Shown here: positions 31,478 to 42,837 of the stretch, piece by piece | Numbering within the stretch: position 1 is the first letter of the stretch | Layout: the number at the start of each line of letters is the position of its first letter | IMG/VR virus record: IMGVR_UViG_3300018080_000154 | Location: 1 to 64,000 of that record | From: a virus | Strand: one strand, 5' to 3' | Length of the DNA stretch: 64,000 nucleotides | Notes under the pieces: generated by a model | Databases searched by the model: none | What the model was told of the DNA's origin: nothing | The model's input: the letters and a program-made list of their open reading frames with translations, nothing else | Position numbers and translations under genes: made by a program

Positions 31478-32686
31478 TTACACCAAACCAATGTTCTTAC
31501 CAAGAACGCATGCGTCTGTTTCTTCGATTTGAACAGCAACACGAGCGGTCATGGCAAATTGGTTTACAGACTTGAAGATGTCGCGATCTCTTTCAATCCG
31601 GATGTCTCGACCGATACCGTAAATCAAGTTGCGGTATTCAGTCAGGATGATTTGAGACTCAGTTTGATACGTTACCTTAACGGTAGCGCCATCACTGATT
31701 CCTCCACCACCTGTACGAGCCAATGTTCCGTTGACAAGATCGACTACGTAGTCTGTTGTGTCAACATAAGGAGCAGTTGGTGTACCAGCCAAATTTGAAG
31801 GAAGAACAAAAACGTTACTGAGTTTCTTGTGTTTGAGTTGAACTGCTGTCGTTCCACTTAATGTAACATGCTCAACTACTGTTGGCTGTTGATCAAGAAG
31901 AGGAACTGGAACAAGTTCGATTCCAAACGGTGTGAGGTTTCGTGTCGTCATAAGAGCAAGGTCGCCTTCGGCGGTTGCACGTGACGCAACGTTGTTACGA
32001 TAGTTTTGTTCCGACTCTGGTGAGCAAAGGAATTTCAACATACCGCGATTTCTTTTGAATTTCTTTGGCATGGCATTGATCATCTTGTTGAAGATCGTTG
32101 GTCCCATGTTTGCTCCAGCAAAATCCACGACGTGAGATGCACCGGCGAGTGTCAACCAACCGTCCTGAAGTGCAAGAAAACCGTCTTTGATATGATTGGT
32201 AGCGTGGCCGCCTTCAATGATATCTGCTTCAACAACCGATTGACCAAGCGTGTTGCCCGAAATGCAAAGCTCTTCCAAGTCATTTACAAATTGGGTCGCC
32301 ATCATCTTAACGATGTGGTCTTCAATTGTCATTTCTTCCAGGTTTTCGATTTCGAATTCATCACTGATTTCGAAAGGTACCATTACCTCTTTGGGGTTCA
32401 TGGAAATTTTCGATGTTGTTACACCGCGTCGAATTCCTGGATCCGTTGCTTCCACTTTAGGAACTGCAACCCTTTTGCCAACCTGAATCTTATCGATATC
32501 AGTTTGACCGCCTTTTAGTCTTGCGACCCTGACTTTTCCTTTCAAGCTTGAAAGATCGACAACGTAATCGATAAATTTGTCAGCCTGCTCTGGATTTAAT
32601 TTTCCATTTGTGGCGATGGCAGAAGTATCGATGATGCCCTTCTCAACGAGTTCTTTCATTTTAGCCAGAAGTTCTGTGTTGTTCAT
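31478..32686 (-). CDS. Major capsid protein (HK97 fold) with C-terminal insertion domain
   Basis: GKLNPEQADKFID, F.NDLEEL.I.GN, DGWL and NLIYGIGRDIRIERDR motifs; AAGGAGG SD. Confidence 0.93.
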   Translation of the reverse strand: MNNTELLAKMKELVEKGIIDTSAIATNGKLNPEQADKFIDYVVDLSSLKGKVRVARLKGGQTDIDKIQVGKRVAVPKVEATDPGIRRGVTTSKISMNPKEVMVPFEISDEFEIENLEEMTIEDHIVKMMATQFVNDLEELCISGNTLGQSVVEADIIEGGHATNHIKDGFLALQDGWLTLAGASHVVDFAGANMGPTIFNKMINAMPKKFKRNRGMLKFLCSPESEQNYRNNVASRATAEGDLALMTTRNLTPFGIELVPVPLLDQQPTVVEHVTLSGTTAVQLKHKKLSNVFVLPSNLAGTPTAPYVDTTDYVVDLVNGTLARTGGGGISDGATVKVTYQTESQIILTEYRNLIYGIGRDIRIERDRDIFKSVNQFAMTARVAVQIEETDACVLGKNIGLV

Positions 32687-32748: not shown

Positions 32749-33717
32749 TTAGTAGCCGTGGATTACACTGTGAAACAATGACTTTGGTTTTTCTTTTTTC
32801 ACTTCTGTTTCAACAGTATCTTCAACGTCGCCGTCGGATTTACTTGTTGGAGCAGAGGCAGATTTTTCGAGATTTTCAACACGGCCAACGACCGCATCAA
32901 TTTTCTCATCGAGACCTTTGAGAAGTTTTACGACTTCGCTGTCTTCGTCTTTCTTCTCTTCGGTTTTTGCTTCGGTAGCAGTAGTTTCTTTAGAGGGTGT
33001 TTCCTCTGTTTTTACTACTTCTTCACCTTCAACCGGCTTAACTTCTTCAGGAGTTTGTTCGGTTTTGGGATCAGTTACTTCAGCGTCAGCACTTTTGTTT
33101 GTAGTTTTGTCGCTCACGTTGCTTCCTCCCTTTTCTGAGCTAGTATCTTGAGGACTAGCACCTTGAACAAGTTCCGACAAAATACTGATGACGTCTTCTA
33201 ATTTTTTGAGTCTTTCTTTTGAAAGTTTTCTACCAGCCTTTTCAACCGGTGCTTCTTTCGAGATTGGCTCTCCAAATTGTGCAATAACTTTGACAAGACT
33301 TTTTGCAACGTCTTTGATCTGAGTTATCACATCACCAGGAAGTCTTTGCTTGTCAACATTCTCTTCCTCACTGTCGTTGTCGACTGAAACCACTTCCAAC
33401 GCGTCAATAGATTTTGCAATCGACATTAGCGTTTCGGTAGTTTCTCTCACGGCCTTAAGAACACTTTCTTTAACGTCGTGAGATACCTGTTTGATGACAT
33501 CGTCGTCAGCAGGCGCATCGACTACATCACTAGATTCTGTGCTCTTATTGATGTCTTCGACAACATCATCGAAAAGTTCTGCTTCCTTTCGATTCATTTG
33601 CCCACCTTCCTTGCCTTTAAAGAAAATAAAATCTTCTTCATTGGCAGCCTCATCCACAATAGAAACCTCTCGTGGACGAATGTTTGTTAAACGACGCTTT
33701 GCTTTTTTACCTGCCAA
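32749..33717 (-). CDS. Capsid scaffold protein bearing a protease-type strand at its N-terminus; nested in-frame starts
   Basis: TTG start after AAGGAGG; N-terminal RLTNIRPREVSIVDEAAN...FFK; acidic coiled coil. Internal SD+start pairs at 33597 (ATG) and 33117 (GTG). Confidence 0.75.
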   Translation of the reverse strand: MAGKKAKRRLTNIRPREVSIVDEAANEEDFIFFKGKEGGQMNRKEAELFDDVVEDINKSTESSDVVDAPADDDVIKQVSHDVKESVLKAVRETTETLMSIAKSIDALEVVSVDNDSEEENVDKQRLPGDVITQIKDVAKSLVKVIAQFGEPISKEAPVEKAGRKLSKERLKKLEDVISILSELVQGASPQDTSSEKGGSNVSDKTTNKSADAEVTDPKTEQTPEEVKPVEGEEVVKTEETPSKETTATEAKTEEKKDEDSEVVKLLKGLDEKIDAVVGRVENLEKSASAPTSKSDGDVEDTVETEVKKEKPKSLFHSVIHGY

Positions 33718-33730
33718 AATAATCCTCCTT

Positions 33731-36700
33731 TCATGCAGCAAGTTTTAATAATTTCTTAAGTTCCCTCACGGTCGCAAGTGCGCCAATAGAAAATCCCGTA
33801 AGTTTTTTAAGTTTAACATTTTCCCAAATGGCATCATCAAGAATGCGAACCTTGAATAACCACGTTCCTTTCTTTATTTTTCTTTTTTGACCTTTCATGT
33901 CGACGATTGTCATGTTGGCCGGTGCGGTGTAAGATTGAAGAATTTTCACACGCTTGTTCACAATGAGTTTGTGCATAAGACCAGTGTTTGCAAAATGCTC
34001 CATGAAGAAATCTGCAGCTTTAACCACTGTGTCCTCGTCGTAAGTATCACCATGCGCGTCGGTGTCGTTAGGCTTAAGAACAATACCATAGGCAATACGT
34101 TCTTCTTTTTTCTCGACACCATTTTCATCTAGGACCTTGACGAATTCAATATCCTTTTCTTCAAATTCTTCCTCCGTGTTCTCTGACCTTCGACTTTTGA
34201 ACAACATGTTTTGTTGTTGTATTTGCTCGATGGCATCAACAATGGAAGTGTCTTGAATATTTTTTAGGATAAACAATTCTTTGAAATCAGATCCTGTGAA
34301 ACCGTCAGTCAATGCTGCGTATTCGGCTAAAAGATCTTTCTCAAGATAGTCGAAATAAAGCTTAAGAAATTTTTCTCTCGAGTTGGTTGAAGGTAAACCA
34401 ATCTCATATTTTTTATCAAATCGACTGGTTCGTTTTAAAAGAGCCTTGTCAAGACGCTCGGGATAGTTTGTTGTGGCAATTACCAACGAATTGTCTAGTT
34501 GACTCATACCGTCCAAGAAATTTAGAAAACTACTACGTCGACCAATGCTCGATGCCACAGTGTCGACGTCTTCGAATACTAGAACTTTTGCTTTGTCTCT
34601 AAGTTGCTTATCCAAGAAATCAAACATGTATCCATCTGGTGAATAACTTGAACAATCAATGAGAATCGAGTAACGATCCGACTTCATCTTGCTGATGTAG
34701 TCTTTAATGAATGTAGTTTTTCCATTTCCGGGAGGTCCATACAATAGTATCCCACGTTTATGTGGAATTCCTTGTGATTTGTACCAGCTTCGTTTTGTGA
34801 AAAATGTTTCCGTGTCGATGTTAAGTTTTTTGACGATATCCTCGTCAAATATTGGCTCTACTACGTTACGGTTTTCAATCGGTACCAAAACATACCCGTT
34901 ACGTGTCATTTCAATAGCGTAGTTTCCTGGCGCATAGTTCAGGTACGGATTATTCTGTACTTCCTCACCGTATCCAAGTATCTTTTCAATCTCTTCTTTA
35001 TCATCAAAGAAAATTATTAATTTACCATCAAGGATAAACGCGTCAATTTTCTCACCCTTGACAACAAGATTTACATAACCATGGTATTCAACATCGTCCA
35101 AACCAGTGTACGACGCAGATTCTACCTTGTAATTTTCCTCAAGGTATCTGATAAATCTCTTTTCTGGGTATTCAACGGTTACAAATTTTCTTTCAACGTT
35201 GTTTAGTTTTGCAACCTCCATCAAAAGAGATTGTGTTGTTCCCATTATTGCTTCTTCGGTTCCCCAGTAAACAAGATCCTTATCAAGACGTTTCATATTT
35301 CTAATCTGTTCTTGTGACTCGGAACGAAGCTTTTGATCTTTAGGTCTTACGAAAACAAATGATTTCTCAATCGGTGCATCAGGTGATGCGGTGAGACTGG
35401 AGACTTGAGTACCAGATAAAATAAATCGACCAACGAGGAGCCCTTTTTTGCCTTTAAAGATAAACTCTTTAAAGTTCTTCGCCTGTACGCCGGCTAACCA
35501 CGTGCCCTGTTCTATCGTCGATATTTTAGCAGACTTAAATCTAGTCGCACCGACACCACCCGATGGTACTTCCACTGTACTTTTTTGTGCAACGCTTAAC
35601 CAATTTTTTGATTGCTTTGACTTAAAAGTACATGGTAGTTCTTTGTTAGAACCTATCTCGGCTCTAAGTGCATTCACCGTCCCAATGTCTGAACTTCCAG
35701 AGATGAGTAAACCGGCCAGATAGTCTAGTGAATTCGGTTTTTGTACACTCATTCTAAGATCATAATGTTGCCCCTTACCAACACTATGACTATGAAGAAC
35801 AAACTTCCCCGTCGAACCTTCTTTAATGTTTTCATCAAAAATCATTTCACCAAAAGATGGTCCTTGAGGTGAAGTTGATTTATCTACCGACTTGTTTATC
35901 TCTGGACACAATGTGTCAAAAATTCTTGTGTCGATATTTTCATCATCAATGAATTTGCGGAAAGTATTTCTATCCCAGTTGTCCATCACGCTAAACATGT
36001 CTACAACTGATTTCTTTACTTCGGACGGTAAAGATATTTTTTCAATTTCATCTGTTGTGAACGGTAGAGTTTTCTCAAGTTTTTCAATAACGTCGGCCGA
36101 TACAATACTCAGACCAACTTTGTCTGATGTTTTATTTACAAGAAGTTCTTGTATTTCGATACTGGCGATGTCGCCCTTTTCTAATCTGACGTCAGTCGGA
36201 GAAGTGCTACCAAGAATTACAAAATTAAAACCTTGGTCGGAAGAAATCTTAGAATATTTTTTCACATCCTTTTCATTCACCATCACTCCAACTGAGTACG
36301 TGAATTTTTTATTGCCAGCAAATGTTTTATCAATAACCTTTACGTTTGCTTTACGAACTTTTTTGAATTTTCTTGCCGGTAGGTTTTTGACAAGTAACTC
36401 ATCGGTAAGAACTTTATCGATTACGTTGTCACCAAAATGAAGAACGTATCCTGTAAGATCATGGAAGTCTGTAAAGCTTGTGTCTTCAAACATCTTGTTG
36501 ACTTCAACAATAATCGGTTTGATTTTTTTGTAATCATTTTCCAACACACCGTCAGGGTCTATTTCTTCAAATTCTGGAAGCGTTATCTTGTTCATCTCGG
36601 TTGTAAGAGCTTCCATACCGATTGTAAATCGATCAAGATAACTCAATTTGTTTTCATCTTTCACAAGATTGGCAGACAGGTCAATGAATTCATTAAGAAC

Positions 36701-37168
36701 AGGTATGAAAGTATTGAGTCTTGCTTTTAGTTCGGCAAGTTGTTTTTGATATTTTTCTTTGAGTTTTGAAAGACGGTCAACCTGGTTGTCTGAAAGATGA
36801 GGACTTTCGGTTTCAATCTTATCTTGTATTCTGTCAAAAGAACTTGATGTTGTTGTTACTCCGGTTTCTTCATCAACCTTTACGTCGTCGAATTCCTTAA
36901 AGGTACCAACGATTGCCTTGACGCCAACTGTTATCTGGTGTTCCTTAAGACTTTCTTCAACGAATCGTTCTCGGCTTATTTGTTCGTAGGTGTAATATTT
37001 CCCAATATCATCGAATTTGCCAACGTCGTATCCATTTTTATCTGCCCATTCTGCTGCCTTTTCTGGAACTGTAAAAGTGTCCTTGTCGAACATTAATGAA
37101 TGAGTGTGAAGATCAAATCTTTTCTGAGCGATCACGTCCTTGTTTTTCTTGACAAGTTTCAATCCCAT
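33731..37168 (-). CDS. Multidomain head-maturation polyprotein: OB-like + LigD-type phosphoesterase-like + AAA+ ATPase + XkdF-type prohead protease
   Basis: PE-like FVLHSH...HYDLRM and IEQGTW...FKG...GRFIL; AAA+ RGILLYGPPGNGKT, VFEDVD and TTNYPERLDKALLKRTSRFD; XkdF-type YGIVLKP..TDAHGD...H...SY.AP...KGTW...W..VK...LTGFSIG. Confidence 0.85.
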   Translation of the reverse strand: MGLKLVKKNKDVIAQKRFDLHTHSLMFDKDTFTVPEKAAEWADKNGYDVGKFDDIGKYYTYEQISRERFVEESLKEHQITVGVKAIVGTFKEFDDVKVDEETGVTTTSSSFDRIQDKIETESPHLSDNQVDRLSKLKEKYQKQLAELKARLNTFIPVLNEFIDLSANLVKDENKLSYLDRFTIGMEALTTEMNKITLPEFEEIDPDGVLENDYKKIKPIIVEVNKMFEDTSFTDFHDLTGYVLHFGDNVIDKVLTDELLVKNLPARKFKKVRKANVKVIDKTFAGNKKFTYSVGVMVNEKDVKKYSKISSDQGFNFVILGSTSPTDVRLEKGDIASIEIQELLVNKTSDKVGLSIVSADVIEKLEKTLPFTTDEIEKISLPSEVKKSVVDMFSVMDNWDRNTFRKFIDDENIDTRIFDTLCPEINKSVDKSTSPQGPSFGEMIFDENIKEGSTGKFVLHSHSVGKGQHYDLRMSVQKPNSLDYLAGLLISGSSDIGTVNALRAEIGSNKELPCTFKSKQSKNWLSVAQKSTVEVPSGGVGATRFKSAKISTIEQGTWLAGVQAKNFKEFIFKGKKGLLVGRFILSGTQVSSLTASPDAPIEKSFVFVRPKDQKLRSESQEQIRNMKRLDKDLVYWGTEEAIMGTTQSLLMEVAKLNNVERKFVTVEYPEKRFIRYLEENYKVESASYTGLDDVEYHGYVNLVVKGEKIDAFILDGKLIIFFDDKEEIEKILGYGEEVQNNPYLNYAPGNYAIEMTRNGYVLVPIENRNVVEPIFDEDIVKKLNIDTETFFTKRSWYKSQGIPHKRGILLYGPPGNGKTTFIKDYISKMKSDRYSILIDCSSYSPDGYMFDFLDKQLRDKAKVLVFEDVDTVASSIGRRSSFLNFLDGMSQLDNSLVIATTNYPERLDKALLKRTSRFDKKYEIGLPSTNSREKFLKLYFDYLEKDLLAEYAALTDGFTGSDFKELFILKNIQDTSIVDAIEQIQQQNMLFKSRRSENTEEEFEEKDIEFVKVLDENGVEKKEERIAYGIVLKPNDTDAHGDTYDEDTVVKAADFFMEHFANTGLMHKLIVNKRVKILQSYTAPANMTIVDMKGQKRKIKKGTWLFKVRILDDAIWENVKLKKLTGFSIGALATVRELKKLLKLAA

Positions 37169-37169
37169 A

Positions 37170-37478
37170 CTATTTCACCTCTTCTGCAATAAAGCCAAGT
37201 TTTGGACCATCGGCAATTATTGTCTTAAAAAAATTCTTGTCGTCTGGTTGTAGTTCAACCTGCTCGGTGTATCTTACAATGCCTTCTTTTGTTTTTTCTG
37301 AACCGCCAGACTGTGTGACGTACGGCTGAGAAAACAAACAATAAAAGAAGTCTGCATTGTATTCTTCATCTTCTTCGTTAGACTGTTCGGCCTCTAAAAA
37401 TATTTTACCATTATTTTGTTCAACTTTGGCCAAAAGAGTACCATCAAAATTTTTCAACGCGTATTTCAATCCAACCAC
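37170..37478 (-). CDS. Small acidic protein downstream of MuF (possible partner/immunity)
   Basis: 102 aa overlapping the MuF stop; the function is inferred from position only. Confidence 0.55.
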   Translation of the reverse strand: MVGLKYALKNFDGTLLAKVEQNNGKIFLEAEQSNEEDEEYNADFFYCLFSQPYVTQSGGSEKTKEGIVRYTEQVELQPDDKNFFKTIIADGPKLGFIAEEVK

Positions 37479-39568
37479 ACTCCAAATAAACGTTCAAGTT
37501 CTGCAAGTTTTTCTGGTGCAACCCGCATTAGTCTTTCTTTATTCTTCCAATAGAACTTCATAACCTCTGCAAAATCTTCGCATGGATCGGTCTCGGCATA
37601 CCAGGTAATGTATCCGAATCGTCTATTACCCCAGACGTGTGCCATTTTTCTATCGACCATGTACCATGGTCCTTGAAGACTCATGATAGTGAAACGACCG
37701 GTTACCTTGGGACCACCGTTTCGTATGTAATGATCAAAGGCATGACCAAGCTCATGGACCAACGTGTCCCAACCTGTACTTCTAAGATTTCTAACAGATA
37801 AAAGTCTATCGTGTGTAAAGTTTTGAGAATAAAAACCTAACACATTTTTATTTCTTCTATAATATTTTTCAGCGTATTTGAACTTACCACCAAGATCTAA
37901 AAGATTTACGGAATCTGACATCATGATTTTTGAAAGACGTTTGTCTAATGCTACCTGCATCATCCAATCTTTAGCACGGCGTATGTTATCACCACTTGAA
38001 TCGTCCAGATAAAGACGTACGTTGTATCTTTTGTTTACGAGTTTTTTGAAATCACTGGCCGACGTGGCTTCATTTATCATCTTTGCAAATGCTTCGGCTT
38101 CTTTTTGTGATGTAAATGGAACGCCACGTGGTAAATCATCATATCTTGTCGGTATTGTTTCATCTGGTTTCGTAGTTGCTCGAGGTTTTCTAGGTTTCTT
38201 TACAGGTTTTGGTCTAGGTACATCGACCGGTTGTACCGGTATTGTTGTGCCGCCTGGTGGTTTTGGAATTGGTGGCGCAACAATTGGTGGTTCAGGTTCA
38301 ACAACAGATCCAAGACGATTTGCTTTTTTCTTAAATATGTGAACCTGAGTGGTTTTAAATTTACCTTCAGATGTAGTGTAACCTACGACGTCGATATTTC
38401 CTTTTGAAGGAACAACGAAACGTTTCGTTACTGTAACTTCTTGATTTTTGAAAAGATATTTTTCACCAATTACAATATCGTCGGCGCTGTCTAGGGCTGC
38501 ATTCATACCTTTCGGTAGAGTTTCATCTGGAATTACTTCAACACCACCAGGACTTGAAGCAACAACCTCCACCGTCGTCTTACATCTAAAATGATATGGT
38601 GGTAAAGCAAGACCAGCGTCGGCCAAAGTCTTGCTTGTTTTGCTGTTCATTTTTTGTCCAGCACCTTTGATACCAAAACTAGAAAGATCTCGTTGCCAAG
38701 GTGCAACTTTCTTCAAAGCGTCTACATCTTTGGCGCCAAGAACAGCCTTCATTTGAGAAACGCCTTGGTCTATTCTAAAAACACGACCATTCATTTGAAT
38801 GCACGTGTCGTTTACTGGAAGTGGGTTGAAAATTCTGTACTCAGTAAATCCAGCATCAACCATTGCCGTCAACGACGAGAAAGTTCTTGCTCTATTCATT
38901 GAAGTACTAGCAAGACCTTTAAAATAACTTGCACTGCTTCCCGTGTAACCAGAAGGAACTATTTTCTGATCAATTACTTTCTTTGAAAGACCAAGACGAC
39001 CAGACAATCTATCTCTAAGCGCCTTGCCAGCATTTGTCATATTCTTGCCTTCTTTATATGTATTGGCAAGAATTTGTGACACCTCTTTCGAAAGATTTCC
39101 TTTGTAGAAAGCATTCGCTGCAATCTTGTTCTGGTCTTTTAATATCTTGATTGTTTTTTTATCAGCATCTGTAAATGCTGGAATGATTTCTACGTTAGAT
39201 TTTTTCTTTGCTTTTTCTATGGGTCGTACCATTTGACGGTTGACAAAATCTGCTTTATTAAGACGATACATCAAAGAAATATCTCGCTCAATATCTTTGT
39301 CAAGCGGCTCGGCAAAGTCAATAAAAAGACTATCGCACAACCTCGCCACAGAGTCGTAGTCATTTTTGGTGGGTTGTTTATCACCCGTGAAGGTTTTAGC
39401 GATCTGTGCGTCAAGTCTAGCGAGGTTCTTCTTCCATTCAACGGCCAACGTACGAGTCAGTGAATTCTCACGTTTCTCGGCGACACGTTCAATGTTTCCC
39501 GTAGCCTTGTAGATGGCAAATTCTAGACCATGTACAAGGTCGGTAAGTTTACTAATCGACTTCGTCAT
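37466..39568 (-). CDS. MuF / SPP1 gp7-like head morphogenesis protein with C-terminal zincin metallopeptidase
   Basis: MuF motifs TCIQMNGRVF and LPPYHFRCKT, a Pro-rich linker, then HELGH...YAETDPCEDFAE (HExxH plus downstream Glu). Confidence 0.88.
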   Translation of the reverse strand: MTKSISKLTDLVHGLEFAIYKATGNIERVAEKRENSLTRTLAVEWKKNLARLDAQIAKTFTGDKQPTKNDYDSVARLCDSLFIDFAEPLDKDIERDISLMYRLNKADFVNRQMVRPIEKAKKKSNVEIIPAFTDADKKTIKILKDQNKIAANAFYKGNLSKEVSQILANTYKEGKNMTNAGKALRDRLSGRLGLSKKVIDQKIVPSGYTGSSASYFKGLASTSMNRARTFSSLTAMVDAGFTEYRIFNPLPVNDTCIQMNGRVFRIDQGVSQMKAVLGAKDVDALKKVAPWQRDLSSFGIKGAGQKMNSKTSKTLADAGLALPPYHFRCKTTVEVVASSPGGVEVIPDETLPKGMNAALDSADDIVIGEKYLFKNQEVTVTKRFVVPSKGNIDVVGYTTSEGKFKTTQVHIFKKKANRLGSVVEPEPPIVAPPIPKPPGGTTIPVQPVDVPRPKPVKKPRKPRATTKPDETIPTRYDDLPRGVPFTSQKEAEAFAKMINEATSASDFKKLVNKRYNVRLYLDDSSGDNIRRAKDWMMQVALDKRLSKIMMSDSVNLLDLGGKFKYAEKYYRRNKNVLGFYSQNFTHDRLLSVRNLRSTGWDTLVHELGHAFDHYIRNGGPKVTGRFTIMSLQGPWYMVDRKMAHVWGNRRFGYITWYAETDPCEDFAEVMKFYWKNKERLMRVAPEKLAELERLFGVWLD

Positions 39569-41222
39569 CCTTGTCTTCACCAAAAATATTTACGTCTAGA
39601 TATTTTTCAATTACATCGCTAAAGTTTTCGATTCTTTGAATTCGTTTTTCCACCTTATCGGGATTGGGAATTTGTCCTTGATTGGGTGCCTCTCCAGAAG
39701 TGTTCTTAACACGGTCGGCCATTGCAAGACTAAACGGTTCGTCTGGATTGAATGTGATTTTCTTAGGATCGTAGGCCGGTATGTCGATATTTAAAATATC
39801 TCCAATGATCATTCTTGCAACGTTAGGTGTCATGCCGCCAGATTTTTCTGTTCCACCTAGAACTTTCACCAGATCTTCATCATCTGTTACATTTGGAGAG
39901 TTTGATTTGAATTTCCAATATTTGATACCAAGATCTAGTATCAGTCTATTCATTTGGAAGTCAAACATTGCTCTTTCAGGTGAGAAAACCTGTTCATCAG
40001 CAAGACGACGTGAAGACTCTGCCGTTGCTCTAGTATAGTCATCGGCACGACCAACAAAAATTGGAGGAAGACGAAAACATCTTCTAATTTTATCGGCATT
40101 GTTCTTGTCGTATTCTTGAAAAAGCTGGTCATTGTTCTGTGCCTTGGTAAGATCTTCCAACTCAATTTTCATTGGACCATTTGAGTCGTTGTCTTCCGTG
40201 AACGGTTCGGCCTCCAAAATAAGAAACGAACTTCTATTTTTGCTTCTCTTGATATGAGACTCTACAAACTCTTCGATGCGTTCAATTGTCCCATCAGTTA
40301 ACTGGCCATTGTTAACGATAACCGCCATGGCCGGAATATTGTTGTTTTGAAAGGTGACAAAATTTATTTCTTCCGCCACACGACTTCCAAGAACCGAAAA
40401 AAGATTTCCAATGTATCGAGGCACACCATAAGAACTCGAACTGCTAAAAAGACGAAACCTTAAAACCTCCGACGCACGAAATTTTGGATCCAGATTTTCA
40501 TCTGCAATTTTACCAGTTCTAAGATCCATTATTCTTGGATCCCCGTACTCTTTGAACCAGACTTTTTTATTTGCACGAACCTGAACGAAACGAGTATATC
40601 GTTTCTTAAAGATCTTATTTTTTATTTGATAGTCTTTCGTGACGTATGGTATTTCGACGTCGGTTGTTTGTTTGTCCAAATTCGTGAGACGAACCGAATG
40701 ACTTTCCATGTGATACATCGAATGAATGTCTTCGTTAGAGTCACGAAGAATTTCAATGTATCCGTTTCCTGTTGTTTCGATGTCTCGACGGACACGTTTT
40801 CTAAGTTCCGTAAGATCATAATCAGGATTAACGTTATTGAAAACAAGGTCAAGTTTTTCAAATTCTCGTTCAAGTTCGTCCTGTAACTTTTCTCTGTCTT
40901 CTTTTGGTACCCGTGGAACAAATCGTCCACCAAAACCTTCTATGTTTGTAACCATTGCATCAACGCATTGACCAAGTTCCGTTGAGTTTTCAGGCATCTT
41001 GGTAAGCATTAAAAGATCGAACGGTGGACATTTAAGATCCTCAACGTTGCGAAACATGTTTTCTTGTTCTACCTGATTTGACTCGGTAGATTTTTGTATG
41101 TATTTTTCAACTTGGCCCACAGTGATCGCACGTAGCGCTCGACGTTGACCGTCTCTATCATTTATGTTCACGACCTGCTGTGAGTTCGCGGTAGCTTTCC
41201 TACGAGGTTTGTTATCACTCAA
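39552..41222 (-). CDS. Portal protein (PBSX-like)
   Basis: RDIETTGNGYIEI, YGVPRYIG, FQNNNIP and IRRCFRLPPIFVG...YTRATA motifs. Confidence 0.95.
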   Translation of the reverse strand: MSDNKPRRKATANSQQVVNINDRDGQRRALRAITVGQVEKYIQKSTESNQVEQENMFRNVEDLKCPPFDLLMLTKMPENSTELGQCVDAMVTNIEGFGGRFVPRVPKEDREKLQDELEREFEKLDLVFNNVNPDYDLTELRKRVRRDIETTGNGYIEILRDSNEDIHSMYHMESHSVRLTNLDKQTTDVEIPYVTKDYQIKNKIFKKRYTRFVQVRANKKVWFKEYGDPRIMDLRTGKIADENLDPKFRASEVLRFRLFSSSSSYGVPRYIGNLFSVLGSRVAEEINFVTFQNNNIPAMAVIVNNGQLTDGTIERIEEFVESHIKRSKNRSSFLILEAEPFTEDNDSNGPMKIELEDLTKAQNNDQLFQEYDKNNADKIRRCFRLPPIFVGRADDYTRATAESSRRLADEQVFSPERAMFDFQMNRLILDLGIKYWKFKSNSPNVTDDEDLVKVLGGTEKSGGMTPNVARMIIGDILNIDIPAYDPKKITFNPDEPFSLAMADRVKNTSGEAPNQGQIPNPDKVEKRIQRIENFSDVIEKYLDVNIFGEDKDDEVD

Positions 41223-41292: not shown

Positions 41293-42837
41293 TCAAATTA
41301 AACCTGGCTCTCGGCGACGGCGACGTCGACGTTTCGAGCGGCTGACTTTGTAAGCAAGATTTATTGAGTCGAAAACGTCTAGACTCTCCTTAGACGGAAA
41401 AGTTGCAAGTAAATCTCTAACCCATTCGGTTGTGGTAAGAACATGCCAGCGACCGTCTTCAAAAGATGGTTGAAGTTTCATGGCCTCTGTGATTTTGTCC
41501 TTATCGGTATAGAGAAGTTTAACCCTTACGTCCTCGTCGAGTTCCTTTACTTCCTGTTCTTTAATTGCCTGAAATGCGTTACCTTCGATAGCCACTTTTA
41601 TCGGATCCCAATCGTTATGCTGATTGACGATAATCTCCGTCTGTCGTTTTGCGGTCGGTTTACTTCTTATTGCATCTACAATATAGAAATGCTTTGGTTT
41701 AGTCTGAGTTTCTACTATCGTGGAATGCGCAAAGAAGGCTGACGATTCTGATTTACTTACCTGAAGGTCAACCCCTTGCCAAATACGAATATTTTTTCTT
41801 GGGTAATCGGTCTCGATACTTATCCAATTGGGGTTAAAGTATTCACCGATTTCACGATCGATTTCCATTTGCATCTGAGTGTACCAATGGATTCCAAGCT
41901 CTCGTTTCTTTGCCAAAAGTTCCTTGGTTGGGTAATGACTTGGCCAGTAGGAAAGAGCACCTTCTGGATTGTCTTCCGTTACCAGTTCTTCATGATACGT
42001 TAACGCTGGAACTCGAAGAATGTGTTCTTTGTATTCATGTTTTTTAGACAAACGCCGGTAAATATCGTCCCAATGATAGTATGTACCGATAAACCAAATG
42101 ATCACGTCTTTCTCAACGGCGTTATACAATGTTTTATGTACCCAGGTGTCGGCAAGGTCACGTTGATGTTGTGTTCTAGAATTTTCTTCATCAACAAGGT
42201 CGTCCACAATTATTTTTGTAAAGTGTTTAGACGTAAGACCACCACCGCAACCAATACATGTCACAGTCGACTCGTTAGCTTTGCAGGTTCTTGCCGCTAC
42301 GTTTATCTCACGGGTGTCCCATTTGGCCCCTCTTTGTTGTCCAAATATTGCTACCAAAAACGGGTCTTCAAGATGTGCCTTGATTACTCTAAGAAATGCT
42401 TCGGCCTGTAACTGTGTGTCGGATGTTATAAGAATTCTTTCGTTCGGGTCCTGTAAGATCCAACAAACTATTTGACTATAGTTTAGAATGTGAGTTTTTC
42501 CAGATCCCCTGGGCGCCAGAAGAATTCCACGACGTCGCGGTCCATCGGGATGTCCCGGTCGATTGAAAAACTTCCACATCCTGTCGTGATGGTCTGCAAT
42601 CTCATAACCAAGAACGTAGTTGGCAAGAATGTCGACTCGGTTTTCTTCTAAAACTTTACGACGTATCATTTCTTTAAGCGCCGAGAAGTTTTGTGCGTAC
42701 AATTGCTCGATGTATTTACGGGGGATAAAACCACGACGACGTTGACCATTGTTCTTGACCATTCCTAATACGTCTTCTTCTTCAAGACGGTCGTCTTCAT
42801 AATCCTTAGTCTGTTTTTTCACCTTTAGTTTTATCAT
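41293..42837 (-). CDS. terL: Terminase large subunit
   Basis: Walker A APRGSGKT, Walker B IIVDDLVD, IGTYYHWDD, and nuclease motifs GVD, IEGNAFQ and DVFDS. Confidence 0.93.
   Translation of the reverse strand: MIKLKVKKQTKDYEDDRLEEEDVLGMVKNNGQRRRGFIPRKYIEQLYAQNFSALKEMIRRKVLEENRVDILANYVLGYEIADHHDRMWKFFNRPGHPDGPRRRGILLAPRGSGKTHILNYSQIVCWILQDPNERILITSDTQLQAEAFLRVIKAHLEDPFLVAIFGQQRGAKWDTREINVAARTCKANESTVTCIGCGGGLTSKHFTKIIVDDLVDEENSRTQHQRDLADTWVHKTLYNAVEKDVIIWFIGTYYHWDDIYRRLSKKHEYKEHILRVPALTYHEELVTEDNPEGALSYWPSHYPTKELLAKKRELGIHWYTQMQMEIDREIGEYFNPNWISIETDYPRKNIRIWQGVDLQVSKSESSAFFAHSTIVETQTKPKHFYIVDAIRSKPTAKRQTEIIVNQHNDWDPIKVAIEGNAFQAIKEQEVKELDEDVRVKLLYTDKDKITEAMKLQPSFEDGRWHVLTTTEWVRDLLATFPSKESLDVFDSINLAYKVSRSKRRRRRRREPGLI

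What the first reader, a model, noticed from the sequence alone, without database searches (positions are those of the whole stretch)
33731..37168. 1145-aa prohead-protease polyprotein carrying a DNA end-healing-like domain and an AAA+ ATPase
Seen, N to C: a small domain (SLMFDKDTF...AAEWADKNGY); a coiled coil; an OB-like region resembling DNA ligase C-termini (~36070-36350; no ligase KxDG motif found); a LigD 3'-phosphoesterase-like domain (~35330-35815); an intact-looking AAA+ module with a BCS1-like WY...GIP.KRGILLYGPPGNGKT (~34200-34850); and an XkdF-type protease (~33750-34105). The PE-like domain keeps the H...HYDxR metal motif but appears to have Q/W in place of the later His/Tyr. The gene occupies the protease slot between MuF and scaffold. 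Known: prohead proteases are normally about 200 aa, LigD PE heals 3'-phosphate DNA ends, and enzyme fusions to head proteins are reported in some phages. Inference: the protease fusion loads enzymes into the capsid for release by self-processing and ejection with the DNA, e.g. to repair genome ends or counter defences. The AAA+ could alternatively remodel scaffold or cargo. I do not recognise this PE + AAA+ + XkdF combination as described.
Basis: partly seen in the sequence, partly recalled or inferred. Interest (0 to 1): 0.88.

Follow-up and report, generated by a model that had tools for sequence, protein, structure and literature searches.

The report
Phage head protease carrying enzyme passengers
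An uncultured marine or sediment phage makes its only recognisable capsid-trimming protease as the last domain of a 1145-residue protein that also holds a ring ATPase and a leftover DNA-end-cleaning module, probably so that these parts are built into the virus head.

Summary
Window 33731-37168 (-) is one intact 1145-codon ORF.
- an XkdF protease (Pfam 2e-25);
- a Bcs1/YjoB-like AAA+ ATPase with intact motifs;
- a LigD phosphoesterase (PE) fold (Z 14.5 to 3p4h);
- a DNA-ligase-type OB fold (Z 10.6 to 3gde) with no adenylation domain;
- an N-terminal leader plus a helical stretch.

The PE-like domain keeps 4 of the 6 residues essential in LigD PE. The other two are His->Gln and Tyr->Trp, and this variant is the consensus of its clade.

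Of 88 distant relatives, 46 end in XkdF. Their passengers vary: ligase, methyltransferase, Acb1, UDG, AAA+. Three other phage loci place such a gene in the same slot, MuF -> polyprotein -> scaffold -> capsid.

A model with controls supports docking of the scaffold protein's N-terminus on the protease domain. In other phages, protease and scaffold are one protein.

My reading is a polyvalent head polyprotein that is loaded through the scaffold and then self-processed. Delivery into the host and the enzymes' activities are untested.

The general idea was predicted in 2017. Earlier notes of this scan report the class on other DNA: repair cargo in at least 7 genomes, AAA+ fusions in at least 12. 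I call it a new variant of a known kind.

The parts
33731..37168 (-). Whole polyprotein ORF, 1145 aa (P0001)
   Evidence: identical contigs in other runs
36854..37141 (-). N-terminal leader domain, residues ~10-105. It is shared by 29 of 88 relatives. Many relatives carry G.H.H repeats in front of it; only one LHTHS is left here.
   Evidence: no Pfam, PDB-sequence or Atlas match
36389..36841 (-). Helical, coiled-coil-like stretch, residues ~110-260, found in 23 of 88 relatives
   Evidence: (only helical-bundle and scaffold-construct noise)
36023..36361 (-). Ligase/capping-enzyme-type OB domain, residues 270-382, without an adenylation domain
   Evidence: model pLDDT 91-98 over these blocks; 3gde Z 10.6, 3l2p 9.9, 2hiv 9.6, 1ckm 9.3, 6dt1 8.6; in relatives it directly follows PF01068
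35813..36022 (-). Helical linker, residues 383-452, with a low-confidence stretch at 425-434 that holds INKS and VDKS
35330..35812 (-). LigD-PE-like beta barrel, residues 453-613. H461, H468, D470 and R472 are kept; Q519 and W523 replace the phosphate-binding His and the Tyr.
34874..35296 (-). N-domain of the ATPase, residues 625-765, conserved with the AAA+ module in 12 of 88 relatives
   Evidence: weak Atlas leads only (BCS1_N, AAA_assoc); no PDB sequence match
34181..34867 (-). Bcs1/YjoB-like classical AAA+ module, residues 768-996. Walker A is G811-T818, Walker B is E866/D867, sensor 1 is N901, and the arginines are R913/R916.
33767..34111 (-). XkdF-type prohead protease domain, residues 1020-1134. 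It keeps D1037, H1066 and S1127; Q1078 sits where 43 of 47 sequences have Glu.
33724..33730 (-). AAGGAGG ribosome-binding site of the scaffold gene, 6 nt before TTG 33717
   Evidence: read from the sequence
33613..33711 (-). Scaffold N-terminal segment, residues 3-35, containing the EVSIV motif. It is modelled to lie against the Ser1127 strand of the protease domain.
   Evidence: the same kind of motif opens the next gene in L004 and L084
32749..33717 (-). Scaffold-like gene, 322 aa. It matches positions 243-400 of phrog_3017, while the polyprotein's XkdF matches positions 25-159 of the same family.

Best explanation
This is a polyvalent head-assembly polyprotein. Its C-terminal XkdF domain is the phage's prohead protease.

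Proposed mechanism:
1. The protease domain docks on the N-terminal strand of the scaffold protein, which is encoded by the next gene. In other phages the two are one polypeptide. The whole 1145-residue chain is therefore co-assembled into the procapsid with the scaffold (inferred).
2. The protease then cuts the chain at the flexible linkers and digests the scaffold (inferred).
3. This leaves the passenger modules in the head. They are a leader plus helical region common to this protein class, a nucleic-acid-binding OB domain with a PE-like metal phosphoesterase of altered active site, and a Bcs1/YjoB-like AAA+ ATPase with its own N-domain.
4. The OB + PE-like pair is what remains of a ligase-OB-PE end-healing and sealing module that is complete in many relatives.
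5. The passengers probably leave with the DNA at infection (inferred, least certain).

Shown here: the folds, the motifs, the gene order, the exchange of passengers among relatives, and modelled scaffold docking.
For: Domains and the head slot:
- The domains are confirmed.
- It is the only prohead-protease candidate in the record. There is one XkdF match and none for S78, ClpP or S49.
- Gene order is terminase, portal, MuF-like minor head protein, 102-aa ORF, polyprotein, scaffold, capsid.
- In Pakpunavirus EM a stand-alone 178-aa XkdF (537-bp CDS) sits in the same slot.

Relatives:
- By phmmer, 46 of 88 carry XkdF, always at the C-terminal end in the 12 I inspected.
- Of the 48 OB/PE relatives, Pfam finds ligase in 23, XkdF in 21, Methyltransf_11 in 5, metallo-beta-lactamase in 4, and Acb1, UDG, AAA and RNA ligase in 2 each.
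- 17 of 25 leader relatives carry XkdF.
- 9 of 88 join the ATPase N-domain, AAA+ and XkdF. Two of them, P0002 and P0006, also hold the PE-like domain.
- Same slot elsewhere: L004 and L003 have an AAA+-XkdF gene after portal and MuF. L084 has methyltransferase, ligase, UDG and XkdF between MuF and scaffold, cement and capsid genes.

Scaffold link:
- phrog_3017 covers the XkdF domain (positions 25-159) and this scaffold (positions 243-400, 1e-10).
- The complex model scores 0.85 against 0.01 for the best of 3 controls. That mark was reached by 58 of 80 solved complexes and 2 of 110 mismatched pairs. The runs agree in at least 80% of contacts and the partner's pLDDT is at least 55. My own alignment was used, so these counts hold only roughly.

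Constraint on the passengers:
- PE-clade columns are conserved, the AAA+ motifs are invariant in 11 of 11 sequences, and 4 of 6 strain differences are silent.

Concept in print:
- PMC5512222, section 8.
Against: - No experiment exists on any member. Packaging, cleavage and ejection are all inferred.
- The complex pass may rest on likeness to solved prohead proteases, because the two chains behave like halves of a split gene. The modelled peptide lies next to S1127 and H1066, so it could equally be a substrate.
- Position 1078 of the protease is Gln, where 43 of 47 family members have Glu.
- The PE-like domain lacks the phosphate-binding His. In CkoPE the H51A mutant gave under 1% product (PMC3082917, passages read).
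- No sealing domain is present in the protein or in the 83-kb record, although the record is only about 74% complete.
- An ATPase sealed in a capsid would have little ATP.
- The AAA+-XkdF linker carries no conserved cleavage motif across 11 sequences.
- The 2021 jumbo-phage paper calls XkdF unrelated to the SH prohead peptidases. The 2017 statement about assemblin-like peptidases may therefore not have covered XkdF.
Confidence: 0.55

Rival explanations
1. The ATPase is an assembly machine, not cargo. The N-domain + AAA+ + XkdF block works at or in the young capsid as an ATP-using device. One version is a Bcs1-like mover or holder of folded proteins that are being packed into the head. Another is a Lon/FtsH-like unfoldase feeding scaffold to the protease. 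On this reading the OB/PE-like part is a passenger or a relic, and nothing needs to be delivered to the host.
For: - The order N-domain, AAA+, XkdF is fixed in 9 of 9 fused relatives and in L003 and L004.
- All ATPase motifs are invariant.
- The module is of the Bcs1/YjoB type. YjoB is a hexamer with a chamber that holds folded clients (PMC9565160, abstract).
- Bcs1 orthologues of jumbo phages were proposed to translocate folded proteins packaged into the head (PMC7824862, passage read).
- AAA+ placed N-terminal to a protease is the Lon/FtsH layout (recalled).
- Earlier notes of this scan report the same ATPase type fused to S78-type prohead proteases in at least 12 genomes (unchecked).
Against: - The AAA+-XkdF linker ranges from about 10-20 to well over 100 residues in the alignment and is not conserved. 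That fits badly with a rigid stacked unfoldase-protease.
- I saw no aromatic-hydrophobic-Gly pore-loop motif among the invariant columns between Walker A and Walker B.
- The AAA+ block is optional in the class. 37 of the 46 XkdF-ending relatives lack it.
- Most phage relatives of the ATPase are stand-alone genes. The 16 loci L005-L020 that I inspected hold ORFs of 232-639 aa (15 of them under 510 aa) on the AAA+ match, and I did not scan them for protease domains.
Confidence: 0.28
2. The upstream domains are decaying baggage. Only the protease, and perhaps the leader and helical part acting as extra scaffold, matters. The OB, PE-like and AAA+ parts were inherited by recombination and have no present function.
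For: - The ligase adenylation domain has been lost.
- 2 of the 6 residues essential in LigD PE differ.
- P0002, the closest relative, lacks the OB domain, so modules come and go.
- The G.H.H repeats of relatives are reduced to one copy here.
Against: - The Gln/Trp state is the clade consensus, not a private lesion: Q in 38 of 49 and W in 48 of 49 sequences.
- The metal triad and the Arg are kept in 47 of 49.
- The AAA+ motifs are invariant.
- Both folded domains model at high confidence (blocks at pLDDT 90 or more).
- No frameshift or stop appears in four other runs, and 4 of 6 differences are silent.
Confidence: 0.12
3. The long ORF is an artefact, either an assembly chimera or a mis-joined contig.
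For: - The protein's 90% cluster has a single member sequence.
- The word-index search of residues 1-760 found only the protein itself.
Against: - That same cluster is recorded on 5 contigs.
- Contigs of runs X4 and X5, from two studies and not flagged as the source, are identical. Single contigs cross each domain boundary.
- The same domain order occurs in P0002 and P0006 at under 50% identity.
Confidence: 0.02

Closest known systems
Polyvalent proteins of phages with a C-terminal processing peptidase (Iyer, Burroughs, Anand, de Souza, Aravind 2017, PMC5512222; section 8 and passages read)
   Same: Several enzyme domains sit in one polypeptide of a terminase-portal phage. The gene lies in the head module beside a MuF-type gene, and a virion-assembly peptidase is at the C-terminus. 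The proposed logic is packaging into the head followed by release.
   Different: That text has 0 occurrences of 'LigD' and 'AAA+', and its 3 uses of 'ligase' concern RNA ligases. The peptidase there is called assemblin-like and 'rather limited in distribution'. Here the peptidase is XkdF, and I did not test its kinship to assemblin. The supplementary architecture lists were not visible to me and may contain such proteins.
LigD 3'-phosphoesterase domain (PaePE 3n9b/2lj6, CkoPE, MbaPE; PMC3300020 and PMC3082917, passages read)
   Same: It has the same beta-barrel fold (Z 14.5 and 12.1). It keeps the two metal-binding His, the Asp and the phosphate-binding Arg. In relatives it lies next to an ATP-dependent ligase, as in LigD.
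   Different: The second phosphate-binding His is Gln and the Tyr is Trp, and this is conserved across the clade. Pfam LigD_N does not reach E<=1 on this protein. Here it sits in a capsid-protease polyprotein without a ligase adenylation or polymerase domain.
Bcs1 and YjoB AAA+ proteins, and the Bcs1 orthologues of jumbo phages (PMC9565160 abstract; PMC7824862 passages)
   Same: It is a single classical AAA+ module behind a private N-domain. YjoB is the best solved relative (1.5e-32) and Bcs1 scores 2e-18. tblastn finds phage genes annotated as BCS1-like.
   Different: It is fused in one chain to a prohead protease and to nucleic-acid domains. Pfam BCS1_N was not detected. There is no membrane anchor that I looked for or saw.
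XkdF-type prohead proteases: stand-alone (Pakpunavirus EM, 178 aa) and protease-scaffold fusions of phrog_3017
   Same: The catalytic domain, the invariant D/H/S residues and the gene slot between portal and scaffold/capsid are the same.
   Different: About 1000 extra residues lie upstream. The scaffold part is split off into the next gene, with the VS.V-type strand at its start.
T4 internal proteins with a capsid-targeting sequence removed by gp21, P1 Dar proteins, and N4 virion RNA polymerase (recalled; the last two also named in PMC5512222)
   Same: Proteins are loaded into the head during assembly, some are trimmed by the head protease, and they are injected with the DNA.
   Different: There the cargo is a separate protein with a short targeting peptide. 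Here the cargo is covalently joined to the protease itself.

Membership tests
XkdF prohead protease (Pfam PF14550, Peptidase_S78_2) | Match to the family model above its curated cut-off | tested here: met
   89.6 bits against 24; 91.6 bits on the DNA
XkdF prohead protease (Pfam PF14550, Peptidase_S78_2) | Family-invariant Asp, His and Ser (my own column counts; the catalytic roles are inferred) | tested here: met
   D1037 in 47/47, H1066 in 47/47, S1127 in 45/47
XkdF prohead protease (Pfam PF14550, Peptidase_S78_2) | Nearly invariant Glu at position 1078 | tested here: not met
   Gln here; Glu in 43/47 and Gln in 4/47. Its role is unknown to me.
XkdF prohead protease (Pfam PF14550, Peptidase_S78_2) | Gene slot between portal/MuF and scaffold/capsid genes | tested here: met
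   cultured example
XkdF prohead protease (Pfam PF14550, Peptidase_S78_2) | Proteolysis of scaffold, capsid protein or itself | not testable with these tools
   none
LigD 3'-phosphoesterase (PE) superfamily | Eight-stranded beta-barrel PE fold | tested here: met
   3p4h Z 14.5, rmsd 1.9, 115/118; 3n9b Z 12.1; Foldseek top 6 all PE; profile-to-PDB 8e-10
LigD 3'-phosphoesterase (PE) superfamily | Metal ligands His, His, Asp (Pae H42, H48, D50) | tested here: met
   H461, H468, D470; each in 47/49 of the clade
LigD 3'-phosphoesterase (PE) superfamily | Phosphate-binding Arg (Pae R52) | tested here: met
   R472, 47/49
LigD 3'-phosphoesterase (PE) superfamily | Phosphate-binding His (Pae H84, Cko H51) | tested here: not met
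   Q519; Gln in 38/49 and His in 3/49
LigD 3'-phosphoesterase (PE) superfamily | Active-site Tyr (Pae Y88, Cko Y55) | tested here: not met
   W523; Trp in 48/49
LigD 3'-phosphoesterase (PE) superfamily | [quoted passage not shown] | not testable with these tools
   none
ATP-dependent DNA ligase | Nucleotidyltransferase domain with the KxDG lysine | tested here: not met
   No PF01068 hit at E<=1; no K.DG string; none in the record
ATP-dependent DNA ligase | C-terminal OB domain | tested here: met
   3gde Z 10.6, 3l2p 9.9, 2hiv 9.6, 6dt1 8.6; homologous to the segment that follows PF01068 in relatives
Classical-clade AAA+, Bcs1/YjoB type | AAA model match, Walker A, Walker B, sensor-1 Asn, arginines of the second region of homology | tested here: met
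   PF00004 6e-16; K817, E866/D867, N901, R913/R916 invariant in 11/11 sequences; YjoB 1.5e-32, Bcs1 2e-18
Classical-clade AAA+, Bcs1/YjoB type | Bcs1- or YjoB-type N-terminal domain | tested here: inconclusive
   No Pfam BCS1_N hit; no PDB sequence match; Atlas leads of 0.80-0.84 to clusters where 13-37% of members carry BCS1_N.
Classical-clade AAA+, Bcs1/YjoB type | Ring oligomer with ATPase activity | not tested
   none
Polyvalent proteins (Iyer et al. 2017) | Two or more effector or enzyme domains in one polypeptide of a portal-terminase phage, in the head-gene context | tested here: met
Polyvalent proteins (Iyer et al. 2017) | Packaged in the capsid and delivered at infection | not testable with these tools
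   Only indirect support: scaffold docking model and the fused family phrog_3017

The most novel reading that the evidence does not exclude
Head assembly in this phage, and in the other phages with such fusions, includes an ATP-driven step. A Bcs1/YjoB-like ring ATPase is tethered through the protease to the scaffold. It holds or moves folded passenger proteins into the procapsid or hands them to the protease. That would make it an energy-using cargo loader that no studied tailed phage is known to have. The variant PE-like clade (His->Gln, Tyr->Trp) would be a new branch of the PE superfamily with a changed substrate.
Probability: 0.25. Interest if true: 0.85.

Novelty: new variant of a known kind. 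Interest (0 to 1): 0.6.

Why it matters
- If the chain is loaded and cut as proposed, the prohead protease doubles as a general carrier that lets phages put almost any enzyme into the capsid. The swapped passengers seen here (ligase, methylase, Acb1, UDG, AAA+) suggest a large, untested set of proteins present at the first moment of infection.
- The scaffold-strand docking gives a concrete loading mechanism that can be tested by mutation.
- A ring ATPase fused to a capsid protease raises the question of whether some heads use ATP before DNA packaging.
- The conserved Gln/Trp PE clade offers a simple enzymology question about what the fold does without its second phosphate-binding histidine.

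Tried and rejected
Folding and fold searches
- Single-sequence AlphaFold of residues 1-760 was useless (mean pLDDT 35). I used none of it.

Leader and helical part
- The ESM Atlas on 1-262 gave no usable hit.
- The A3 profile against PDB gave only helical-bundle and designed-protein matches (best 6e-5), which I read as composition.
- Its fold is not established, and I do not claim that it is new.

ATPase N-domain
- phmmer against PDB gave one chance-level match (E 0.74).
- Atlas scores of 0.76-0.90 are leads only.

Homologue and locus searches
- The word-index search of residues 1-760 found only the protein itself. The full HMMER scan was needed.
- The search for related loci with residues 1-760 found no relative in viral contigs.
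- With alignment A2 the tool had no stretch conserved enough to search with.
- tblastn of the OB + PE part against 50,697 phage records gave no match at 1e-3.
- P0007 (ligase, PE-like, XkdF) matched 238 phage records, none over 80% of its length or more, and the listed matches fall on its XkdF or its ligase part only.
- These say nothing beyond those collections.

Alignment
- A4 (61 sequences on residues 1-765) was misaligned in the PE columns. I did not fold it and used A1 instead.

Cleavage-site lead
It occurs 13 times against 4.9 +/- 2.1 in 2000 residue shuffles, and 4 times against 0.72 in linkers that I defined myself.
- The site in the AAA+-XkdF linker is not conserved in relatives.
- The test is post hoc, so I keep it as a weak lead only.

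Lon-like rigid stacking
- I consider this unlikely because of the variable linker, but it is not excluded.

Expression and coverage
- No RNA holder was listed. This says nothing about expression.
- The listed contig pieces of X4 and X5 leave 34589-34639 without a listed piece, although the depth table shows cover in all 30 bins. X7 lacks cover in 2 bins. No conclusion is drawn from either.

Literature searches for a prior description
- Terms used: 'XkdF'; 'prohead protease' + polyvalent + ligase; 'Peptidase_S78_2'; XkdF + phage + fused; phosphoesterase + LigD + bacteriophage + capsid (0 papers).
- None describes this domain set. Supplements were closed and may list such architectures.

Full report
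THE ORF AND ITS SETTING

Window 33731-37168 (minus strand) is a single ATG-started ORF of 1145 codons. It lies in an 82,953-bp IMG/VR virus record that is classed as linear and estimated at 74% complete. The ATG follows the stop of a 102-codon ORF by one base and has a GAGGTGA-like site upstream.

The genes around it, all on the minus strand, are:
- large terminase, 41293-42837 (phrog_38, 3e-59);
- portal, 39552-41222 (PF04860, 3e-16);
- a 705-aa MuF-like minor head protein, 37466-39583 (phrog_115, 3e-7), with a C-terminal HExxH peptidase-like end (PF15890, 0.001, below cut-off);
- the 102-aa ORF;
- the polyprotein;
- a 322-aa acidic scaffold-like gene;
- the major capsid protein, 31478-32686 (phrog_1623, 2e-75).

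The record has one XkdF match and no S78, ClpP or S49 match. This is therefore the only recognisable head-protease candidate in what is held.

DOMAINS, C TO N

XkdF. Pfam finds XkdF at residues 1020-1134 (2e-25) and AAA at 807-924 (6e-16). I aligned the XkdF ends of 47 sequences. D1037 and H1066 are in 47 of 47 and S1127 in 45 of 47. Position 1078 is Glu in 43 of 47 but Gln here.

AAA+. The ATPase is closest to B. subtilis YjoB (7w42, 1.5e-32). Cdc48/p97 follows at about 1e-29, and Bcs1 scores 2e-18. In 11 aligned sequences the Walker A residues (G811...K817), E866, D867, N901, R913 and R916 are invariant. A conserved 140-residue N-domain (625-765) always goes with it. It has no Pfam or PDB sequence match and only weak Atlas leads to AAA-associated N-domains.

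OB and PE-like. Residues 260-640 were folded with a 49-row alignment, giving mean pLDDT 83.6.
- Residues 453-613 superpose on LigD PE structures: 3p4h Z 14.5, rmsd 1.9, 115 of 118 residues; 3n9b Z 12.1.
- All 5 Foldseek matches at E<=0.001 are PE chains.
- A sequence profile of the clade finds the four solved PE sequences at 8e-10 to 3e-5.
- Residues 270-382 superpose on the OB domains of ATP-dependent ligases and capping enzymes: 3gde 10.6, 3l2p 9.9, 2hiv 9.6, 1ckm 9.3, 6dt1 8.6. These stand above the generic OB rows at Z 6-7.
- No adenylation domain or K.DG motif exists in the protein. None was found in the record.

Leader. Residues 1-262 consist of a small domain and a helical stretch with no known family.

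THE PE-LIKE ACTIVE SITE

The literature names six essential residues: Pae H42, H48, D50, R52, H84 and Y88 (PMC3300020, introduction). Two His and an Asp bind manganese. An Arg and a His bind the phosphate. In CkoPE, H51A gives under 1% product and Y55A keeps 23% (PMC3082917, passages).

In the HMMER alignments the clade's residues line up as His, His, Asp, Arg, then Gln on the EDH histidine and Trp on the tyrosine. Of the 49 rows of A1, H461, H468, D470 and R472 are each kept in 47. Position 519 is Gln in 38 and His in 3. Position 523 is Trp in 48.

This is a conserved variant, not a private lesion. It fails two membership features of LigD PE. It probably still binds a metal and a phosphate ester, but its substrate cannot be read from sequence.

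RELATIVES

A full HMMER scan of 1.84 billion representatives with residues 1-760 gave 88 relatives. Mapping them on the whole protein gave these counts:

| Module | Relatives carrying it (of 88) |
|---|---|
| XkdF | 46 |
| PE-like | 52 |
| OB | 25 |
| Leader | 29 |
| Helical part | 23 |
| ATPase N-domain + AAA+ | 12 |

- 9 relatives join AAA+ to XkdF.
- 2 (P0002, P0006) join PE-like, AAA+ and XkdF. P0002 lacks the OB domain.
- 22 of the 52 PE-like relatives also end in XkdF.

Pfam on the 48 OB/PE relatives finds the ligase adenylation domain in 23 and XkdF in 21. It also finds Methyltransf_11 in 5, metallo-beta-lactamase in 4 and LigD_N in 3. Acb1, UDG, AAA and RNA ligase occur in 2 each. Of the 25 leader relatives, 17 carry XkdF.

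Single examples:
- P0007: ligase + OB + PE-like + XkdF.
- P0035: Acb1 + methyltransferase + ligase + OB + PE-like + XkdF.

In these relatives our residues 267-626 match the segment directly after the adenylation domain. The OB + PE-like pair here is therefore the remainder of a ligase-OB-PE module. Many relatives without XkdF may be cut gene calls, which I could not check.

SAME SLOT IN OTHER PHAGES

- L004: portal, MuF (PF04233), a 926-aa leader-AAA+-XkdF protein, then the next gene.
- L003: terminase, portal, a 380-aa gene, then an 856+-aa AAA+-XkdF protein cut by the contig end.
- L084: MuF-like gene, a 1511-aa methyltransferase-ligase-OB-UDG-PE-like-XkdF protein, a 325-aa gene, cement protein, capsid protein.
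- Pseudomonas phage EM: a plain 178-aa XkdF (537-bp CDS) in that slot.
- Of the 80 IMG/VR loci kept for the ATPase-protease query, only L002-L004 cover the protease part. The 16 loci L005-L020 that I inspected hold ORFs of 232-639 aa on the AAA+ match; I did not scan them for protease domains.

LINK TO THE SCAFFOLD

- From the sequence I read an AAGGAGG site at 33724-33730 and a TTG at 33717. The scaffold therefore starts 14 nt after the polyprotein's stop.
- phrog_3017, annotated as 'head maturation protease' and 402 positions long, matches the polyprotein's XkdF at positions 25-159. It matches the scaffold gene at positions 243-400 (1e-10). In other phages the two are therefore one protein.
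- The genes after the L004 and L084 polyproteins open with the same kind of motif.
- A complex model of residues 996-1145 (with a 22-row alignment) and scaffold residues 1-70 scored 0.85. The best of 3 controls scored 0.01. That mark was reached by 58 of 80 solved complexes and 2 of 110 mismatched pairs. The runs agree in at least 80% of contacts and the partner's pLDDT is at least 55.
- My own alignment was used, so those counts hold only roughly.
- Scaffold residues 3-35 touch the strand around S1127 and the segment around H1066.

These two chains behave like halves of a split gene, so the pass may come from likeness to solved proteases. The model also cannot tell strand completion from substrate binding. 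Either way it supports contact between the polyprotein and the scaffold, which would carry the polyprotein into the procapsid.

IS THE ORF REAL?

- Ten runs in 8 studies (sediment 2018, seawater 2021) hold the stretch. Three are flagged as possible sources.
- Contigs of X4 and X5 match with no difference, and single contigs span each domain boundary.
- X6 and X7 carry a variant with 6 substitutions in the ORF and no indel. Four are silent, and the others are L420M and A149T.

WHAT IT MOST LIKELY DOES

I rank three readings.

1. Polyvalent head polyprotein, about 0.55. It is tethered to the scaffold, built into the procapsid and cut by its own protease, with the passengers kept in the head. This follows the 2017 concept and fits the exchange of passengers among relatives.
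2. ATP-using assembly device, about 0.28. The ATPase block could serve assembly itself, as proposed for phage Bcs1 orthologues in 2021. It is optional within the class, and its linker to the protease is variable and not conserved. A rigid Lon-like machine therefore seems unlikely.
3. Decaying passengers, about 0.12. The conservation data argue against it.

Delivery into the host is the least supported step in every version.

COMPARISON AND NOVELTY

The principle is in print (PMC5512222). The proposal that phage Bcs1-like ATPases act on proteins packaged into heads is also in print (PMC7824862). I found no paper on XkdF-ended polyproteins with ligase/PE or AAA+ passengers.

This scan has noted the class before on other DNA. 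Repair-enzyme cargo on prohead proteases appears in at least 7 genomes. Bcs1/YjoB-type ATPases on S78-type prohead proteases appear in at least 12 genomes. Those notes are unchecked by me.

Particular to this case:
- an XkdF-type protease carries both themes at once;
- the ligase module is reduced to OB + PE-like;
- the PE clade has a conserved Gln/Trp active-site variant;
- there is modelled docking of the scaffold's first strand.

I rate it a new variant of a known kind, with interest 0.6.

Noticed in passing
window 32749-33741: The scaffold gene most likely starts at TTG 33717, behind AAGGAGG at 33724-33730, and not at the TTG 33741 listed by the ORF finder. Its first 35 residues carry an EVSIV...F.FFK motif. 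The same kind of motif opens the gene after the polyprotein in L004 and L084. phrog_3017 covers both the protease and this scaffold.
   Followed up: yes
window 37466-39583: The 705-aa MuF-like minor head protein has a proline-rich middle and a C-terminal HELGH zinc-peptidase-like end (PF15890, 0.001, below cut-off). This looks like a second polyvalent head protein next door.
   Followed up: partly
L003 6999-9566, L004 3155-5935, and alignment A3: Relatives start with six or more G.H.H repeats in front of the leader domain. One of 26 sequences hits Pfam YmaF. The window's protein keeps a single LHTHS at residues 20-24. The repeats may bind metal; I did not study them.
   Followed up: no
protein P0004 (1141 aa): A relative's AAA+ module is interrupted right after the Walker A lysine by an intein with a homing endonuclease (Hint at 478-554, Hom_end/LAGLIDADG at 682-757). 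The halves match our residues 621-818 and 817-1142.
   Followed up: no
L084 1232-5767: A 1511-aa polyprotein joins methyltransferase, DNA ligase, OB, a uracil-DNA-glycosylase-superfamily domain, a PE-like part and XkdF. The set resembles a base-excision and end-repair kit in a head gene.
   Followed up: partly
window 33731-37168 (protein residues 384, 424, 428, 989): [IVL]xK[SAG] occurs 13 times against about 4.9 in shuffles, and 4 of these fall in linkers. Two sit in the low-confidence stretch 425-434. They are possible cleavage sites, but the test is post hoc and the one before XkdF is not conserved.
   Followed up: partly
proteins P0047 and P0058 (alignment A2, columns ~700-830): These relatives seem to hold a second PE-like copy further along. 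It has a more canonical H...H.D start and an FEG..PP segment. I saw this by eye in the alignment only.
   Followed up: no
window 37170-37478: A 102-aa acidic ORF lies between the MuF-like gene and the polyprotein. It has no Pfam or PHROG match and is translationally coupled to the polyprotein.
   Followed up: no
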